A stretch of 64,000 nucleotides of DNA. It comes from a virus. The translations under genes and the position numbers were made by a program. The notes beneath the pieces were generated by a model. That model was not told the DNA's origin and did not search any database. It was given only the letters and a program-made list of their open reading frames with translations. Of this stretch, positions 9,697 through 31,970 are shown piece after piece. Every line of letters starts with the position of its first letter. Positions within the stretch are counted from its first letter, which is position 1. The stretch is from the IMG/VR virus record IMGVR_UViG_3300037296_000046, positions 11,870 to 75,869 of that record, one strand, 5' to 3'.

Positions 9697-9920
9697 TGGC
9701 ACTACTATTGCCAAGAGATGTATATCTTGATGGCATGTCACCCCAGAAAGCCATTAGGGTACTAACAGATTTGATAAACCGAGTATCTCCTAGCGATAGG
9801 AGATACTTGTTTATTGAAGAATACGAAGACAGTCTTGGCGATCCATTTTGCCAAAACCCAACGAAATGCCTTCGGCTAATACTGAAAAAACCCTCTGTTC
9901 ATCAAGGAGAAAACCCATGA
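9696..9920 (+). CDS. small hypothetical protein
   Basis: TAATG and ATGA coupling on both sides. Confidence 0.45.
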   Translation: MALLLPRDVYLDGMSPQKAIRVLTDLINRVSPSDRRYLFIEEYEDSLGDPFCQNPTKCLRLILKKPSVHQGENP

Positions 9921-22462: not shown

Positions 22463-22816
22463 ATGAACGATGTCACTACTGCACCTGCTGCTTCGCCTGT
22501 CAGCCTGTCTGACCTGAAAGCTGCTCGTGACAAACTGAACGCACGCATTGCTGAAGAAACCAAGACCAACCGCAAGAACACCGTTGCGGAAATCAAAGCT
22601 CTGGTCGAAGCCTACGACATCCCACAAGATGAACTGGTTGCTTCTGTTTTCGGCAAAGCTCGCAAAGCTAAGGGTACGGCTACCAAAGCTGAACCTAAGT
22701 ATCAGAACCCTGCGGACACTGACCAGACATGGACCGGTAAGGGCCGTCAACCTGAGTGGTACAAGACTGCCATCGAAGGTGGTCAATCCCCAGAGACGAT
22801 GCTGATTAGCAAGTAA
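22463..22816 (+). CDS. hns: H-NS family nucleoid-associated protein
   Basis: PKYQNP...TWTGKGRQPEW DNA-binding signature; N-terminal coiled coil; AAGGAG RBS. Confidence 0.9.
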   Translation: MNDVTTAPAASPVSLSDLKAARDKLNARIAEETKTNRKNTVAEIKALVEAYDIPQDELVASVFGKARKAKGTATKAEPKYQNPADTDQTWTGKGRQPEWYKTAIEGGQSPETMLISK

Positions 22817-22834
22817 GCTGATCACATTACATTT

Positions 22835-22868
22835 AAGCCCTCTAGTATTCGTACTAGGGGGCTTTTTT
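22835..22868 (+). terminator. intrinsic terminator
   Basis: AAGCCCTCTAGTA-TTCG-TACTAGGGGGCTT plus T-tract. Confidence 0.88.
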
Positions 22869-23112: not shown

Positions 23113-24426
23113 TTGATTGGAAAACACATGCCACTGAACTTAGGGCAGAAAAATGCCTCGACAGAGTGTCTCCAATTCCTACTGTCACCAGATAAAGAGT
23201 TTCGTATCGCTGGGCCAGCAGGAGTTGGTAAGACATTCATGTTGAAATACATCATGAATACATTGATCAAGCAGTACGAACAGACATGTAAACTTCTGGG
23301 CATCAAGCCTACTGAGTTTGACATTGCTCTTACTGCTACGACCAACAAAGCTGCTGAGGTGCTTGCCACTTCTACAGGATACCCAACCCAAACGATCCAT
23401 AGCTTTATGAATCTACGGGTATACGACGATTACTCTAGCGGAGTATCGAAGTGCAATAAGACCCGTTCATGGCATGTCCATCGTGAGACTATCATCTTCA
23501 TTGATGAAGCCTCTATGGTAGATGAGAACCTGTACAAGTTCCTCATGGAAGGTACTGATAAGACATGTAAAATCATCTACATCGGTGATCGTCACCAGTT
23601 GGCACCTGTCTTTGAGAAGGTGTCCAAGGTCTATGCTACTGATCATAACTTGGTCGAATTGACTGAGCCAGTACGCAATGCTGACCAGCCTGCGTTGATG
23701 AATCTGTGTGAGCAGTTCCGTGATACGGTTAAGACAGGGGTGTTTAAACCTATTGTCGAAGTTCCCGGAGTCATTGACTTCATTGATGATACCAAATTGG
23801 CTCAAATGTTGGATGTCACTCTGAAGCCTGAAGATGTGGATGCTCGTATCCTCATGTTCACCAATCAGCGTGTCCATGACTATAACGAATATCTTCGTGA
23901 AGTTCGTGGACATGGTAAGATGTTTGCCAAAGGTGAAATCTTGGTAAACAATGCCTCTGTGGAAATCAGTGACAAGATTCAATTGTCAGTAGAACAGCAA
24001 TTCTTAGTGCTACAAGCTGACACTGATGTTCGTGAGATTGTAGTATGCCGTAACGATAGTTCTATCGTAATGGACATCTACAAGATGCGGATCACCCATG
24101 CTACAAATCCAAATGGTGAAGGCTTTGATGTCCGTATCCCATACGACATGGAACACTACAAAAAGCTGATGAACTATTTCAGCAACAACAAGATGTGGCC
24201 AGATTTCTACAACCTTAAAAACAACTTTCCTGATCTACGGATGAAGGATGCCTCGACTGTCTATAAGGCTCAAGGCTCCACCTATGAATTCGTGATCCTA
24301 GACCTAACTAACATCGGTCTATGTAAGGATGCTGAACAAACAGCACGGATGCTCTACGTTGGCGTTTCTCGTCCAACCACACGCATTTTCCTTTACGGCA
24401 AGCTACCCCCTAAGTACGCTGGCTGA
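23113..24426 (+). CDS. SF1 (Dda/RecD-like) DNA helicase
   Basis: GPAGVGKT, IDEASM, GDRHQLAPV, TVYKAQGST, YVGVSR. Confidence 0.92.
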   Translation: MIGKHMPLNLGQKNASTECLQFLLSPDKEFRIAGPAGVGKTFMLKYIMNTLIKQYEQTCKLLGIKPTEFDIALTATTNKAAEVLATSTGYPTQTIHSFMNLRVYDDYSSGVSKCNKTRSWHVHRETIIFIDEASMVDENLYKFLMEGTDKTCKIIYIGDRHQLAPVFEKVSKVYATDHNLVELTEPVRNADQPALMNLCEQFRDTVKTGVFKPIVEVPGVIDFIDDTKLAQMLDVTLKPEDVDARILMFTNQRVHDYNEYLREVRGHGKMFAKGEILVNNASVEISDKIQLSVEQQFLVLQADTDVREIVVCRNDSSIVMDIYKMRITHATNPNGEGFDVRIPYDMEHYKKLMNYFSNNKMWPDFYNLKNNFPDLRMKDASTVYKAQGSTYEFVILDLTNIGLCKDAEQTARMLYVGVSRPTTRIFLYGKLPPKYAG

Positions 24427-24434
24427 ACAAGTTT

Positions 24435-24508
24435 GGTTCTATAGCTCAATTGGATAGAGCTTCCGCCTCCTAAGCGGGTCTGTGTGGGTTCGAGTCCTAC
24501 TAGAACCA
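24435..24508 (+). tRNA. tRNA-Arg (anticodon CCT), CCA not encoded
   Basis: cloverleaf folded by hand: GGTTCTA/TAGAACC acceptor, GCTC/GAGC D stem with A20, loop CT-CCT-AA, GGTTCGAGTCC T arm. Confidence 0.93.
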
Positions 24509-24510
24509 CC

Positions 24511-24714
24511 GGAGTACGCAGTGGACCTAAGTTGCCACTGTGTAAGGTCAGGAGCCACCCCCACGGGGCTTCCTGATTACACCCTGCTGTGACCCTTAGA
24601 AAAGGTTACAGCGTGGTGGGTAGAGCCTAGCTCAAGCCCACTGTAGGTGGCTGAGAAGCCGCAGAGAAGGATGAAAGACCTTCGCATCTAGGTGGAAACC
24701 CTAGAACCAACTCA
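24511..24714 (+). ncRNA. putative structured ncRNA (seven consecutive hairpins)
   Basis: no ORF in the track; stems with G-U pairs and GNRA/T-loop-like loops tile the interval. Confidence 0.65.
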
Positions 24715-24727
24715 TTAGGAGAGACAT

Positions 24728-25219
24728 ATGCGGACTTACATCGGCACTAAAATCATCAAAGCCAAACCCATGACACGGGCTGAATACAACACCTATCGTG
24801 GGTGGGATTTACCGGAGAATGAAAACGGCGATGATGGTGGTTATCTCGTTGAGTACGAAGCAGCACCAAATGTTGAGACAAATCATGTCGATCATGCGGG
24901 CTATATTTCGTGGTCCCCAGATTCCGTATTTGAGGAATCTTATCGTGGTCCGGGAACCATGAACTTCGGCCATGCTTTAGAGATTCTAAAGTCTGGTGGA
25001 CGCGTCAGCCGTCAAGGTTGGAACGGCAAGAACATGTTTATCTTCTTGGTAAACGGTTCAACTTTCACCGTAAATCGTGAGCCACTGCTTTCGATCCTAG
25101 GTGAAGGAACAGAGGTCAATTACCACGGCCATGTGGATATGAAGACCGCTGACGGCATGATCGTTCCATGGCTCTGCTCGCAAACTGATATGCTTGCAGA
25201 AGATTGGGGCATTGCCTGA
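24728..25219 (+). CDS. two-domain protein: YIGTK...YISWSP domain fused to DUF2829 (Tad2-like) domain
   Basis: C-terminal MNFGHALEILKSG.RVSR.GWNGK.MFIFLV...WLCSQTDMLAEDW; AGGAG RBS. Confidence 0.82.
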   Translation: MRTYIGTKIIKAKPMTRAEYNTYRGWDLPENENGDDGGYLVEYEAAPNVETNHVDHAGYISWSPDSVFEESYRGPGTMNFGHALEILKSGGRVSRQGWNGKNMFIFLVNGSTFTVNREPLLSILGEGTEVNYHGHVDMKTADGMIVPWLCSQTDMLAEDWGIA

Positions 25220-25223
25220 TCAA

Positions 25224-25257
25224 TGGGGCAGCGTGTTTACACGTTGTCCCAACCTTT
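25224..25257 (+). terminator. hairpin after the DUF2829 gene (terminator or processing stem)
   Basis: TGGGGCAGCGTG-TTTA-CACGTTGTCCCA 12-bp stem; weak T-tract. Confidence 0.5.
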
Positions 25258-25337
25258 GTCGGTGTCACTGTAAGTGATGAGTGGGGTTTGATCACCCTTG
25301 ATCAACTCAGCAGGTGGGAACCCTGCCACCGGCTCCA
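25258..25337 (+). ncRNA. tRNA-like RNA with encoded 3' CCA, non-canonical
   Basis: 7-bp GTCGGTG/CACCGGC acceptor plus T-CCA; 5-bp GCAGG/CCTGC T stem with 7-nt loop; two further arms. Confidence 0.7.
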
Positions 25338-25356
25338 TATTACAAATGAGGATGTT

Positions 25357-25854
25357 ATGAGACTTGATTATCTCAAGCTCATCCCCTCCCTGATCGCTTC
25401 GGTCATGGGACCGGAGAAAGCTCGTTTCAAAAAGCTACGCAGCAAATTAGTTGAGGATAACATGAAGTTAGGCGGTAACGTCCTTGGCTTCAGGCACCTT
25501 GGCTTGCGCTATAGCAACAACCATCCCCGCGATACCAAAGGTGTTCACTTGCCTGCTGTGGAACCATCCTTTAAGGGTGAGGTCCAGCGATTCGAGGCTC
25601 TTGTCCTACGGGCAGAACGTGATGAGCAGCGTCTTCGCCAGTCTCTCACAGTTGTTCTACCGATGTGTGAAAGCCTACAAGACATCCGTGATGTTTTGCC
25701 AGAGGTATTCGTAACCGAAATTACACAGCTAAGCTCTCTCGTAAGAACCAGAGAGGCAGGCTACATACTGAGGGAGCATCCAGTGTTAAAGACCCAATAC
25801 GATCAAGCTGTAGAGATTGCTCTATTCTACACCGTCAATCGTCTGGTATTTTAA
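25357..25854 (+). CDS. N4 gp38-like protein (Nmad5-like)
   Basis: GAGGA RBS before ATG 25357; size and position between helicase and polymerase; SLQDIRDVLPE motif. Confidence 0.7.
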   Translation: MRLDYLKLIPSLIASVMGPEKARFKKLRSKLVEDNMKLGGNVLGFRHLGLRYSNNHPRDTKGVHLPAVEPSFKGEVQRFEALVLRAERDEQRLRQSLTVVLPMCESLQDIRDVLPEVFVTEITQLSSLVRTREAGYILREHPVLKTQYDQAVEIALFYTVNRLVF

Positions 25855-28846: not shown

Positions 28847-29839
28847 ATGAAAGCCACCATCAAGAATCAAAATGGTATGAGCCTAGCTGCCGCTGTGTGG
28901 TTGGCTCATGACACCTACGACAATGGGGCTAGTGCAGCACCGGAACAGGATACTATTTCGGTCACTACCCTGTTGAAGCCTACTCGTGCTTTCATTCTGG
29001 CACAGCAGGTTGATCCAAACGATGAGAGCCAAATGCTCGATGTCACGGACATGATCCCTTCACGTCTAGGCCATGCTATCCACGATTCCATTGAGGATGC
29101 TTGGCGTAATGGGTATCGGAATTCTATGGCTAAACTGGGGTATCCTCAGAAAGCTATTGATGCTGTCCGTATCAATCCTGAAACAGATGATGGGACTATC
29201 TTTCCTGTCTATCTGGAACAACGGTTCTTCCGTGAGATTGATGGGGTAATCATCTCAGGTAAGTTTGACCAAATTATCAATGGTGATCTGGTCGATACCA
29301 AATCCACTTCGGTTTGGGCTTACATGAATGGTTCTAAACTTGAGGATTATATCCTTCAGTTGTCCATCTATCGTTGGATCAATCCTGATAAGGTCACATC
29401 TGATGTTGCCTATATTCAGCACGTCTTTACTGATTGGCAACGGAATCAAGTTGGAACCAATCCCAACTATCCCAAGTATCGTGTGACTGAAATCAAAGTC
29501 GAATTGATGACCATTGGTCAGACAGAGCGTTGGATTCGTACCAAGCTGGCTGACATCCGTAAGAATGGTCCACTCAAGCAAGAGTTCATGGTTCGTTGTA
29601 CTGACAAAGAGCTTTGGAAATCTGAACCTCAATACAAATACTATGCTGATCCTGCAAAGGCTGAGCTTGGGGGTCGATCCACCAAGAACTTTGATAGTTT
29701 TCATGCCGCCGATAAGCACCGAAAGGATGCGGGCAAAGGTGTTGTTGTAACCAAGCCCGGAGAAGTCAAAGCATGTCCATATTGCAAAGCCTTCTCTGTG
29801 TGTGAACAGAAAGATGAGTATTTCGATGTCGCTGCCTGA
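28847..29839 (+). CDS. PD-(D/E)xK/Cas4-like exonuclease (N4 gp42-like)
   Basis: GHAIH, E...SGKFD...DTK, QLSIY, C-terminal CPYC...C. Confidence 0.85.
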   Translation: MKATIKNQNGMSLAAAVWLAHDTYDNGASAAPEQDTISVTTLLKPTRAFILAQQVDPNDESQMLDVTDMIPSRLGHAIHDSIEDAWRNGYRNSMAKLGYPQKAIDAVRINPETDDGTIFPVYLEQRFFREIDGVIISGKFDQIINGDLVDTKSTSVWAYMNGSKLEDYILQLSIYRWINPDKVTSDVAYIQHVFTDWQRNQVGTNPNYPKYRVTEIKVELMTIGQTERWIRTKLADIRKNGPLKQEFMVRCTDKELWKSEPQYKYYADPAKAELGGRSTKNFDSFHAADKHRKDAGKGVVVTKPGEVKACPYCKAFSVCEQKDEYFDVAA

Positions 29840-31970
29840 TCTAGAAACGATTGACCATCACCCTGCGATTGAGGAAATCGTGGACGTGATGTGCAACAAG
29901 ACCCAGAACACTGATCGGGGTTTCTTCCGTGTAGAGGTGGCCTATTTTCTTGCGAAGATGGCCGCTTCTATGCGTTCTGAGATTCTGACTAAGGATCGGG
30001 GCAACATCCCTGTGAACGTCTATGCTCTTGCCATGGCTACATCTGGCTTTGGTAAGGGTCACAGTGTTCACATCATGGAAGAACAATTCATGAAGGGTTT
30101 CAAACGCCGTTTCATGGAGGATACATTTCCAACTATTGCTGACACTCATCTGTGGAAGCTGGCATTTCAACGTGCTGGCACAAACGGTACTGAGGAGCAG
30201 GAAGAACGGGATAAGCTAGAGAAAGAGTTTATCCAAGCTGGTGCATTGCCCTTCACTTTTGATAGTGGCACTGGTCCTGCCGTGAAGCAGCTTCGTCAGA
30301 AGTTGATGCTGGCAGACTGTGGGGCTGTGAACCTACAGATTGACGAGATTGGCTCTAACCTTGTCGGTAACGTCGAGGTTCTGACCATGTTCTTGGAGCT
30401 ATACGATCAAGGCTTGGTCAAACAGAAGCTCGTCAAGAACACCCATGACAACCAACGTGGGCAAGAGATGGATGGTAAGACACCAACCAACGCATTGCTC
30501 TTTGGCACCCCTTCTAAGCTCTTGGATGGGGGTCAGACTGAAGACCAGTTCTACTCCTTCCTTGAGACAGGCTACGCTCGTCGTTGTCTCTTTGGGTGGG
30601 GTGAGCATATCCCCTCTGAAATCGAACTGACACCCAAGGAGGTCTACGAACGCCTGATTGACACAGGTAACGTGACCACTGTGGACCGTTGGTCAGATCA
30701 CTTCGCTTTACTTGCTGACAGCACCAAATTTGGCTGGCAGATGAGTGTGAGCGATGAGGTAGGTGTTGCTCTCATCACCTATAAAATCCAGTGTGAGAAG
30801 CTGGCTGCCACCTACGCAGAGCATGAGGACATTCGTAAAGCTGAGATGTCACACCGATATTTCAAATGCCTTAAACTAGCAGGTGCGTTTGCCTTCGTGG
30901 ATCAATCATCTGACATTACGCTAGACCATCTCTACTCGTCCATGAAACTGGTCGAGGAGTCTGGCATAAGTTTCCAGCGATTGCTGACACGGGAAAAGAC
31001 CTACGTTAAATTGGCTAAGTTTATCGCATCCTCTACGGATGAATTGACCCATGCTGATCTACACGAAGCTCTGCCTTTCTATAAGTCCAGTCAATCTGCT
31101 CGTAATGAGATGATGACCATGGCTACTGCATGGGGCTACAAACAGCATATCGTCATCAAGAAGACATTCTTGGATGGTATCGAATTCTTCACAGGGGAAA
31201 CCCTTGAGGAAACTAATCTGGATGAGATGCTTATCAGTTACTCTGATAACTTCGCGTTCAACTATTCATTCGAGCGTCAGCCAATGAGTAGTATGCACCT
31301 ATTGACCCAATCCGTTGGGAACCATTGGTGTAATCACGGTTTCTCTAACAACCACCGTTCCGAGGAAAATGTAGTTCCCGGCTTTAACATAGTGGTTATT
31401 GACTGTGATGGTGGTGTCCAATTGTCGTTGGTCCATGAGCTTCTCAAAGAGTATGAGTTCATGACATACACCACTAAGAGCCATACTGAGGCAGAGAATC
31501 GGTTCCGACTGATGATCCCTATTAGCTATGTCCTTGAGTTGGATCGTGATGACTATAAAGAATTCATGAACAACATTATGGATTGGCTACCATTTCCTTC
31601 TGATGAAGCCGCTAACCAGCGATCTAAGAAATGGGAAACCTATTCAGGTGGCAAATACTCCGTGAACCATGGTGAGCTACTCGACCCTTTGAAGTTTGTA
31701 CCAAAGACCTCAAAGAACGAGCAGCACCGTACATCCATGACCAAGCTGGAAAGCCTAGACAACTTCGAGCGTTGGTTCGCATCACGGATTGCTAACGGCA
31801 ACCGTAACAACCAGATGATCAAGTTTGCATTAGCCCTTGTAGATCAAGGACTTAACTACAACGATGTCGAGAGTTGTGTCGTCAGTTTCAACAATAAGTT
31901 GGCCGATGGGCTGACTGAGACTGAGCTACGGAGCACCATCCTACAGACTGTTGCCAAGAAGTTTAGCTAG
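29826..31970 (+). CDS. DNA primase (N4 gp43-like)
   Basis: SGFGKG P-loop, DCD and YTTKSH...RFR motifs, C-terminal GNRNN (PriCT-like). Confidence 0.85.
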   Translation: MSLPDLETIDHHPAIEEIVDVMCNKTQNTDRGFFRVEVAYFLAKMAASMRSEILTKDRGNIPVNVYALAMATSGFGKGHSVHIMEEQFMKGFKRRFMEDTFPTIADTHLWKLAFQRAGTNGTEEQEERDKLEKEFIQAGALPFTFDSGTGPAVKQLRQKLMLADCGAVNLQIDEIGSNLVGNVEVLTMFLELYDQGLVKQKLVKNTHDNQRGQEMDGKTPTNALLFGTPSKLLDGGQTEDQFYSFLETGYARRCLFGWGEHIPSEIELTPKEVYERLIDTGNVTTVDRWSDHFALLADSTKFGWQMSVSDEVGVALITYKIQCEKLAATYAEHEDIRKAEMSHRYFKCLKLAGAFAFVDQSSDITLDHLYSSMKLVEESGISFQRLLTREKTYVKLAKFIASSTDELTHADLHEALPFYKSSQSARNEMMTMATAWGYKQHIVIKKTFLDGIEFFTGETLEETNLDEMLISYSDNFAFNYSFERQPMSSMHLLTQSVGNHWCNHGFSNNHRSEENVVPGFNIVVIDCDGGVQLSLVHELLKEYEFMTYTTKSHTEAENRFRLMIPISYVLELDRDDYKEFMNNIMDWLPFPSDEAANQRSKKWETYSGGKYSVNHGELLDPLKFVPKTSKNEQHRTSMTKLESLDNFERWFASRIANGNRNNQMIKFALALVDQGLNYNDVESCVVSFNNKLADGLTETELRSTILQTVAKKFS

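What the first reader, a model, noticed from the sequence alone, without database searches (positions are those of the whole stretch)
24511..24714. About 200-nt RNA tiled by seven hairpins directly behind the tRNA
Seen, folded by hand: H1 TACGCAGTGG/CCACTGTGTA (24515-24544); H2 TCAGGAGCC/GGCTTCCTGA (24548-24576); H3 GCTGTGACC/GGTTACAGC (24586-24612); H4 GTGGG..GAGC/GCTC..CCCAC (24616-24641); H5 GTGGCT-GAGA-AGCCGC (24647-24662); H6 GAAGG-ATGAAAGA-CCTTC (24666-24683); H7 TCTAGG-TGGAAAC-CCTAGA (24687-24705). A possible closing pair is GAGT/ACTC (24512/24713). G-U pairs favour the plus-strand RNA, and the last three loops are GNRA or T-loop-like, which suggests tertiary packing. It is a long ORF-free stretch in an otherwise tightly packed genome. 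Known: large phage ncRNAs such as GOLLD and ROOL often lie beside tRNAs; I do not recognise this one as either.
Basis: partly seen in the sequence, partly recalled or inferred. Interest (0 to 1): 0.8.

Follow-up and report, generated by a model that had tools for sequence, protein, structure and literature searches.

The report
Orphan hairpin RNA behind phage tRNA-Arg
A 200-base gene-free stretch behind the only tRNA gene of an uncultured N4-like phage really does fold into seven tight hairpins, but it looks like a string of modules (four hairpins plus a worn tRNA look-alike) leading into an anti-defence gene, and it has no relative anywhere, so its role is unproven.

Summary
All seven hairpins sit at the stated coordinates. 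The plus-strand RNA folds far better than shuffles (-90.4 kcal/mol, z -6.2, 0 of 200) and better than the minus strand (z -3.0). The stretch is the longest ORF-free gap, the most densely folded one and the second most structured 200-nt window of the 64 kb. Rfam gives only the tRNA.

The single compact RNA reading is not supported. The closing helix vanishes when flanks are included. A model of the tRNA-like element downstream of the next gene picks out H5-H7 as its best non-self match, so the last three hairpins read best as arms of a degenerate tRNA look-alike.

The stretch belongs to a ~930-bp island: tRNA-Arg(CCU), hairpin RNA, Tad2-like gene, hairpin, tRNA-like RNA. Cultured relatives and most N4-like loci lack it.

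No homologue was found, so covariation cannot be tested. The phage is a singleton (nearest helicase 60% identical).

Best reading (about 0.4): a co-transcribed, tRNA-punctuated processing and stability leader that may also yield small stable RNAs. The closest analogue is phage T4 tRNA-Arg followed by rnaD and rnaC.

First-stage readers flagged this same stretch twice. The scan also noted similar tRNA-linked structured RNAs in other N4-like phages, none alike in sequence.

The parts
24435..24510 (+). tRNA-Arg, anticodon CCU; ends ...A-C-C then G, so the CCA is not fully encoded
   Evidence: ARAGORN; Rfam RF00005 62 bits
24511..24642 (+). 5' block of four hairpins: H1 24515-44 (10 bp), H2 24548-76, H3 24586-612 (9 bp), H4 24616-41 (two-tier). 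No U-tracts and no repeats. The H4 core resembles a permuted D-arm of the neighbouring tRNA.
   Evidence: H1-H3 pair probabilities near 1 in context; D-arm likeness, post hoc
24643..24715 (+). Degenerate tRNA-like module. Acceptor-like helix 24643-48 / 24706-11 (5 pairs plus one A-A). H5 sits at the D-arm place (GAGA loop), H6 at the anticodon-arm place (8-nt loop), H7 at the T-arm place (6 bp, loop UGGAAAC). It is followed by U-CAU instead of N-CCA.
   Evidence: Model R2 of the 25258-25337 element: 16.3 bits, E 0.009 in 10 kb and 0.059 in 64 kb, best non-self match. Cloverleaf -21.0 to -22.7 against MFE -23.8 kcal/mol. Shared AGGTGGRAACCCT.
24717..24730 (+). Shine-Dalgarno AGGAGA and the ATG of the Tad2-like gene. 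The 204-nt fold ends before it, and in the wider fold it is mostly unpaired.
24728..25219 (+). Two-domain Tad2-like (DUF2829) protein, 163 aa; the cargo gene of the island
   Evidence: Pfam PF11195 E 2.8e-25 on residues 78-162; phrog_872; about 1900 homologues, best 76% identity
25224..25251 (+). 12-bp hairpin right after the Tad2-like stop codon, without a proper U-tract
   Evidence: z -6.2; not called as a terminator
25258..25337 (+). Non-canonical tRNA-like RNA: 7-bp acceptor, T-arm with loop UGGGAAC, U-CCA end. It is a paralogue of 24643-24715.
   Evidence: cloverleaf is the MFE; missed by ARAGORN and Rfam tRNA; model R2
25357..25854 (+). N4 gp38-position gene; marks the downstream end of the inserted island. 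The listed TTG start at 25204 is probably too far upstream.
   Evidence: 30% identity to ort11 gp056 from residue 71 of the long ORF; phrog_4881

Best explanation
The stretch is a plus-strand RNA element made of modules: a block of four very stable hairpins (24511-24642) followed by a worn, non-decoding tRNA-like module (24643-24715). It is transcribed with the helicase, tRNA-Arg(CCU) and the Tad2-like gene as part of the phage's replication-gene (middle) transcript. Together with the genuine tRNA in front, and with the hairpin plus tRNA-like RNA behind the Tad2-like gene, it punctuates that transcript. In this model host tRNA-processing enzymes (RNase P, RNase Z or E) cut at the tRNA and tRNA-like shapes. 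That would free the tRNA and leave the Tad2-like message, and possibly one or two small stable RNAs of about 130 and 75 nt, with ends buried in nuclease-resistant hairpins. The Shine-Dalgarno sequence stays unpaired. Shown: the fold, the strand preference, the modular make-up, the island context, and the lack of terminator or repeat features. Inferred: co-transcription, cleavage at the tRNA-like shapes, and stabilisation of the message.
For: The structure is far above chance and better on the transcribed strand. GC is raised as in structural RNA genes. All neighbouring genes lie on the + strand and no terminator or promoter-like site separates the tRNA, the RNA and the Tad2-like gene. H1 begins 4 nt after the last base called as tRNA (24510) and 6 nt after its discriminator. 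The SD and ATG lie just outside the fold. tRNA-shaped modules flank the cargo gene on both sides, and the two are each other's best match. Two T-stem pairs differ between them on both sides (G-C to C-G, C-G to U-A). A 12-bp hairpin caps the 3' side. The whole 24427-25356 block is absent from ort11 and RHph_I1_6 and from most of 79 N4-like loci, where helicase to polymerase is about 500-620 nt against 1428 here. That points to a self-contained cassette. Other intergenic hairpins of this phage are mostly U-tract terminators, a different class. Precedent: in T4, tRNA-Arg is followed within 1 nt by the stable RNAs rnaD (119 nt) and rnaC (139 nt, with a T-arm-like 3' hairpin).
Against: There is no homologue, so no covariation and no proof of selection on the pairs. 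One 5' hairpin would be enough for stabilisation, so seven is unexplained excess. The acceptor-like helix of the 24643-24715 module has a mismatch and no CCA, so RNase P or Z recognition is uncertain. The R2 match is modest (16.3 bits, rough E-values). A coding stretch in the primase gene folds just as strongly (z -6.9), so z-scores alone do not prove an RNA gene.
Confidence: 0.4

Rival explanations
1. A stand-alone, trans-acting stable small RNA (or two), released from the tRNA precursor like T4 rnaC and rnaD. Its function is unrelated to expression of the next gene. It could be a counter-defence decoy or sponge working beside the Tad2-like protein.
For: It occupies the same position as T4 rnaD and rnaC behind tRNA-Arg, whose roles are still unknown (PMC3014915, PMC9697503). 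It has far more structure than a leader needs. The H1 loop carries CCUAAG, identical to the anticodon-loop 3' part of the adjacent tRNA, and the H1 and H3 loops hold complementary pentamers (direct reading). It sits in an island whose cargo is an anti-Thoeris-type sponge.
Against: No terminator or processing site is demonstrated between it and the Tad2-like gene. It is conserved nowhere, unlike trans-acting phage RNAs such as GOLLD and ROOL. Loop-motif scans of IMG/VR returned only chance matches. The loop complementarities are short and not significant.
Confidence: 0.27
2. An evolutionary relic: scrambled and decaying tRNA or tRNA-like copies left by duplication and recombination in a tRNA islet. 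The arms still pair, but the RNA has no specific function beyond being tolerated.
For: H5-H7 look like a degraded copy of the tRNA-like element, with a broken acceptor pair and a lost CCA. The H4 core matches a permuted D-arm of the tRNA-Arg. CTAGAACCA occurs at the tRNA 3' end and again at 24701-09. The element is unique to one phage.
Against: Stems of 9-10 bp with only G-U wobbles, z -6.2 and raised GC are not what neutral decay leaves. H1-H3 have no tRNA likeness. Sequence similarities to the tRNA are weak (p 0.07) or post hoc.
Confidence: 0.18
3. A DNA-level element that uses the inverted repeats, such as a replication origin, a recombination or packaging site, or a hairpin promoter for the virion RNA polymerase.
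For: It lies between the helicase and the DNA polymerase genes. As single-stranded DNA both strands fold above chance (z -4.3 and -3.6).
Against: A family-wide origin should be conserved in place, yet 79 N4-like loci and two cultured relatives have no non-coding DNA here. The RNA-specific G-U pairs give the + strand a 10 kcal/mol advantage. N4 virion-polymerase promoters are 5-7-bp stems with 3-nt loops near the genome's left end (from memory), unlike these hairpins.
Confidence: 0.05
4. A chance accumulation of hairpins with no selected structure.
For: Only one sequence exists. Another window inside a coding gene reaches z -6.9.
Against: 0 of 200 shuffles fold as well. All seven local hairpins are individually better than shuffles. 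The stretch is the longest ORF-free gap, has the highest folding density and a GC peak.
Confidence: 0.03

Closest known systems
Phage T4 tRNA-Arg / rnaD (species 2) / rnaC (species 1) stable RNAs
   Same: These are structured non-coding RNAs butt-joined to the 3' side of a phage tRNA-Arg. In T4 the gap is 1 nt, then come 119 and 139 nt of RNA. rnaC ends in a T-arm-like hairpin inside a closing stem, so it is tRNA-shaped. Their function is unknown after decades (PMC3014915, PMC9697503). Neither T4 RNA matched any Rfam family in my scan of that stretch.
   Different: There is no sequence or covariance-model similarity. The T4 RNAs are not followed directly by a protein gene with its SD. T4's tRNA-Arg sits in an eight-tRNA region with a homing endonuclease, whereas here there is a single tRNA inside an anti-defence cassette.
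tRNA-punctuated transcripts (mitochondrial punctuation model; E. coli thrU-tyrU-glyT-thrT-tufB operon)
   Same: tRNA shapes embedded in a polycistronic RNA direct RNase P and 3' endonuclease cuts that release neighbouring messages (from memory, established knowledge).
   Different: Here two of the three shapes are non-decoding look-alikes, and a 130-nt hairpin block is added. No cleavage has been shown.
GOLLD (RF01998) and ROOL (RF03087) phage RNAs
   Same: They are phage-encoded, lie near tRNA genes and have unknown function (PMC12286853).
   Different: There is no Rfam match at E <= 10. This RNA is 3-4 times smaller and has simple tandem hairpins, not the multi-pseudoknotted, conserved architecture.
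5' stem-loop mRNA stabilisers and intercistronic hairpins (ompA leader, T7 RNase III sites)
   Same: Local hairpins at processed ends protect messages (from memory).
   Different: Those are one or two hairpins. The T7 RNase III sites are longer irregular duplexes. Nothing known uses seven hairpins plus a tRNA look-alike.

Membership tests
Any Rfam 15 family (including GOLLD, ROOL, T-box, tmRNA, Y RNA-like, ribozymes) | Covariance-model score at or near the family's gathering threshold | tested here: not met
   cmscan at E <= 10 over 23800-25400 and at gathering threshold over the whole window returns only the tRNA.
Canonical tRNA (for the H5-H7 module) | Cloverleaf recognised by tRNA detectors, 7-bp acceptor, 7-nt anticodon loop, UUC-type T-loop | tested here: not met
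   There is no RF00005 match at E <= 10. ARAGORN finds nothing sensible here even at a 70% threshold (its one overlapping call is a minus-strand, intron-bearing artefact). The acceptor has one A-A mismatch, the loop is 8 nt, and the T-loop is UGGAAAC.
tRNA-like element of this phage (25258-25337) | Match to a covariance model of that element with arms in the same order | tested here: inconclusive
   The match is 16.3 bits, E 0.009 (10 kb) and 0.059 (64 kb). It is the best non-self hit, the next being 9.5 bits. Real tRNAs score 15-24 bits with the same model. The model rests on a single sequence and its E-values are rough.
T4 rnaC / rnaD | Sequence or structure homology to the T4 RNAs | tested here: not met
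   Model R1 run over the T4 tRNA region with filters off finds only short chance hits.
T4 rnaC / rnaD | Position directly 3' of a phage tRNA-Arg, structured, non-coding | tested here: met
Intrinsic terminator | GC-rich hairpin followed by a U-tract | tested here: not met
   The scan finds none in 24427-25357. The phage's real terminators at 22835, 4934 and 18408 have U-tracts.
Type III antitoxin or CRISPR-like repeat array | Tandem direct repeats of one unit | tested here: not met
   The repeat search finds no direct repeat unit within 24511-24714, only scattered two-copy matches of 8-24 nt.
N4-type virion RNA polymerase hairpin promoter | 5-7-bp stem with a 3-nt loop, in the early region at the genome end (from memory) | tested here: not met
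   The outer stems are 5-10 bp with loops of 4-10 nt. The only 3-nt loop caps a 4-bp inner stem in H4. The region lies mid-genome among replication genes.
Conserved structured RNA family (any) | Homologues with covarying base pairs | tested here: not met
   No homologue was found in about 250 fetched loci, 15 whole N4-like genomes, 50,697 GenBank phage records or IMG/VR motif scans. A full covariance-model scan of the collections was not possible.

The most novel reading that the evidence does not exclude
The hairpin block and the two non-decoding tRNA look-alikes are an RNA arm of the counter-defence island. They would be processed, stable RNAs that mimic tRNA parts: the H1 loop repeats the CCUAAG of the tRNA-Arg anticodon loop, and T-loop-type loops sit in H6, H7 and the downstream element. 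They could then decoy or titrate a host tRNA-directed defence nuclease or a tRNA-binding sensor, complementing the Tad2-like signal sponge encoded between them.
Probability: 0.08. Interest if true: 0.8.

Novelty: new variant of a known kind. Interest (0 to 1): 0.4.

Why it matters
Phage tRNA regions repeatedly carry structured RNAs that nobody can explain, from T4 rnaC and rnaD to GOLLD and ROOL. This one is small and sits in a compact, clearly bounded cassette with a single cargo gene of known type (a Tad2-like sponge). It is also flanked by tRNA shapes. That makes the question 'processing signal, message stabiliser or trans-acting RNA?' testable on a 1-kb cloned fragment. If the tRNA look-alikes do direct cleavage, it would show that phages package accessory genes as self-processing RNA cassettes. 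Its weakness is that it is a one-off: without relatives it cannot define a family.

Tried and rejected
**Homologue hunts, all negative.**
- nhmmer and blastn of the RNA against 80 IMG/VR loci with Tad2-like genes, 80 N4-like helicase loci and all other fetched loci.
- Single-sequence covariance model R1 against the same loci, 80 metagenome Tad2-like loci, six phage loci with near-identical tRNA-Arg(CCU) arms, the T4 tRNA region and 15 whole N4-like genomes.
- blastn against GenBank phages at E <= 1.
- Two loop-motif scans of IMG/VR, which gave only chance hits without stems.
- Downstream regions of related tRNA-Arg(CCU) genes are unrelated.
- Upstream spacers of the closest Tad2-like genes are unstructured or coding, and flanks cluster only by synteny.

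**The phage is a singleton.** Its helicase and Tad2-like proteins were each seen on one contig only, and the best relatives are 60% and 76% identical.

**Readings rejected.**
- CsrA/Rsm-type sponge: about six GGA motifs by my own reading and estimate, near chance.
- boxA leader: no motif present.
- MITE or IS insertion with a 9-bp duplication: no terminal inverted repeats.
- T-box: no Rfam hit.
- Small peptide: the longest + strand ORFs (30 and 36 aa) start inside the tRNA, and there is no start with a usable SD.
- Terminator array: no U-tracts.

**Tools unavailable.** One search of earlier findings failed. The genome-contig scan was not used because no pattern promised more than chance hits.

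Full report
**Context**

The window is most of a 75,869-bp virus record with direct terminal repeats. Its replication genes resemble N4-like phages (Schitoviridae), nearest among cultured ones Sinorhizobium phage ort11 and Rhizobium phage RHph_I1_6.

The local order, all on the + strand, is:
- Dda-like helicase, 23113-24426
- tRNA-Arg(CCU), 24435-24510
- the flagged stretch
- a two-domain Tad2-like/DUF2829 gene, 24728-25219
- a 137-nt spacer
- a gp38-position gene whose real start is probably ATG 25357
- DNA polymerase, from 25854

Yes. All seven hairpins fold on their own at the stated coordinates, and each beats dinucleotide shuffles.

| Fold of 24511-24714 | Energy (kcal/mol) | z-score |
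|---|---|---|
| RNA, + strand | -90.4 | -6.18 (0 of 200 shuffles as good) |
| RNA, - strand | -80.4 | -3.04 |
| DNA, + strand | -41.4 | -4.3 |
| DNA, - strand | -38.6 | -3.6 |

With DNA parameters the strand difference nearly vanishes, so the asymmetry comes from the G-U pairs in H1, H2, H3 and H5.

Other measures agree:
- In a sliding scan of both strands the region ranks second of 2560 windows.
- It is the longest gap without an ORF of 50 aa or more.
- It has the highest folding density of 15 gaps.
- It is a GC peak, 0.555 against about 0.43-0.46.

Two cautions apply. The top-ranked window lies inside the primase gene (z -6.9), so a z-score alone does not prove an RNA gene. The proposed closing helix GAGU/ACUC disappears once flanks are included.

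**What it is not**

- Rfam returns only the tRNA, even at E <= 10.
- None of the hairpins is followed by a U-tract, whereas several of this phage's other intergenic hairpins are classical terminators.
- There is no repeated unit.
- There is no credible ORF.
- It cannot be a family-wide replication origin. In ort11 and RHph_I1_6 the helicase gene runs straight into the gp38-position gene. In 79 N4-like loci the helicase-to-polymerase distance is mostly about 500-620 nt against 1428 here, and the dozen longer cases are filled with small ORFs.

So 24427-25356 is an inserted accessory island at an occasional hot spot.

**Relatives**

None was found. The searches that came back empty were:
- nhmmer, blastn and a single-sequence covariance model (R1) against about 250 loci: Tad2-like loci from IMG/VR and metagenomes, N4-like helicase loci, and phage loci with near-identical tRNA-Arg(CCU) arms
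- 15 whole N4-like genomes
- the T4 tRNA region
- GenBank phages
- loop-motif scans of IMG/VR

The phage itself is a singleton. Its helicase and Tad2-like proteins each occur on one contig in the 15-billion-protein collection, with best relatives at 60% and 76% identity. Covariation, the usual proof of a structured RNA, therefore cannot be obtained with these data. Expression data could not be obtained either.

**Internal anatomy**

A lead from an earlier first-stage note was the tRNA-like element at 25258-25337. I checked it:
- Its minimum-energy fold is a cloverleaf with a 7-bp acceptor, a T-arm with loop UGGGAAC and a U-CCA end.
- ARAGORN and the Rfam tRNA model miss it.

The repeat search showed AGGTGGRAACCCT shared by that T-arm and H7 (local alignment p 0.025). 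I then built model R2 from the element:
- It hits 24643-24715 with 16.3 bits, E 0.009 in 10 kb and 0.059 in the whole window. This is the best non-self match, the next being 9.5 bits.
- The same model scores genuine tRNAs at 15-24 bits elsewhere.
- In the alignment H5, H6 and H7 take the D-, anticodon- and T-arm places.
- GUAGGU (24643-48) pairs with ACCAAC (24706-11), five pairs and one A-A.
- Two T-stem pairs differ on both sides between the copies.

The cloverleaf costs -21.0 to -22.7 kcal/mol against -23.8 for the open three-hairpin form.

So the last third of the finding reads best as a degenerate, non-decoding tRNA look-alike. It is a paralogue of the element on the other side of the Tad2-like gene.

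Weaker signs of tRNA ancestry:
- CTAGAACCA occurs at the tRNA 3' end and again at 24701-09.
- The H4 core resembles a permuted D-arm of the tRNA-Arg. This is post hoc, and its p-value is inflated because the stems are self-complementary.

H1-H3 resemble nothing.

**How it most likely works**

The island reads as tRNA, four-hairpin block, tRNA look-alike, SD with the Tad2-like gene, 12-bp hairpin, then tRNA look-alike with CCA.

The simplest mechanism is a tRNA-punctuated, self-contained expression cassette:
- It is co-transcribed with the replication genes.
- tRNA-processing enzymes cut at the tRNA shapes.
- The resulting ends are buried in hairpins while the SD stays free.

This would release the tRNA and a protected Tad2-like message, and perhaps small stable by-products. 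None of the cleavage steps is shown, and seven hairpins exceed what stabilisation needs, so I give this about 0.4.

The main rival (about 0.27) is a trans-acting stable RNA. Phage T4 has the same layout, with tRNA-Arg followed after 1 nt by rnaD and then rnaC. rnaC is itself tRNA-shaped at its 3' end. The roles of both remain unknown (PMC3014915, PMC9697503).

The remaining rivals are a relic of scrambled tRNA copies (about 0.18), a DNA-level element (0.05) and chance (0.03).

**Comparison with the known, and novelty**

- It is not a member of any catalogued RNA family.
- It is not homologous to T4 rnaC or rnaD.
- It is far smaller and simpler than GOLLD or ROOL, which share only the habit of lying near phage tRNAs (PMC12286853).
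- It belongs to a known kind, structured RNAs attached to phage tRNA genes, in a new setting: a single-tRNA anti-defence cassette with flanking tRNA look-alikes.

Earlier notes of this scan report comparable tRNA-linked RNA modules in other N4-like phages and structured RNAs beside other Tad2-like genes. None shares sequence with this one, and I treat them as context, not evidence.

**Verdict**

This is a real, strongly folded, plus-strand RNA element. It is modular and partly tRNA-derived, and it is not one ornate RNA. Function is unproven and no relatives exist. Interest is moderate (0.4).

Noticed in passing
window 29901-30100 (+): This is the most strongly folded 200-nt window of the whole 64 kb (-87 kcal/mol, z -6.9), with long near-perfect hairpins. 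It lies inside the 5' part of the DNA primase gene (29802-31970, phrog_2135). It could be a regulatory or processing structure within coding sequence.
   Followed up: partly
window 25220-25356: The second spacer of the island holds a 12-bp hairpin (25224-51, z -6.2) right after the Tad2-like stop. It is followed by a non-canonical tRNA-like RNA (25258-25337) with a 7-bp acceptor, T-loop UGGGAAC and an encoded U-CCA. ARAGORN and Rfam both miss it.
   Followed up: yes
window 25204-25854: The mechanical ORF list starts this gene at TTG 25204, which overlaps the tRNA-like RNA. Homology to ort11 gp056 begins at residue 71, so ATG 25357 is the likely start.
   Followed up: partly
L035, L036, L038, L316 (about 2387-2991 in L035): Another phage lineage has a tRNA-Tyr followed by a 518-nt ORF-poor spacer with internal direct repeats (for example GUCCUCAGUCGUGUUGGU twice) leading into a Tad2-like gene. 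It is not specially folded (z -1.5) and has no Rfam hit. Tad2-like genes also sit beside tRNA genes in L039, L042, L324 and L331.
   Followed up: partly
N4-like loci L084-L163, helicase to DNA polymerase junction: About 12 of 79 N4-like loci carry extra small ORFs between the helicase and the gp38-position gene (gaps of 690-1480 nt against the usual 500-620). The site is a recurrent insertion spot for accessory genes.
   Followed up: partly
window 22463-22864: An H-NS-type gene (Pfam Histone_HNS C-terminal domain, E 2e-14) with its own strong terminator (13-bp stem plus U-tract at 22835-64) lies in a lytic N4-like phage.
   Followed up: no
window 9697-9810 (+): An intergenic gap folds with z -5.5, much better on the + strand. 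It includes a 13-bp perfect hairpin without a U-tract.
   Followed up: no
window 24433-24441 vs 24702-24710 and 24620-24627: The 5' acceptor strand of the tRNA-Arg can also pair with two downstream sites in the structured RNA (9 bp with TAGAACCAA; about 7-8 bp with GUAGAGCC in H4). In a plain thermodynamic fold of the precursor these compete with the true acceptor stem.
   Followed up: partly
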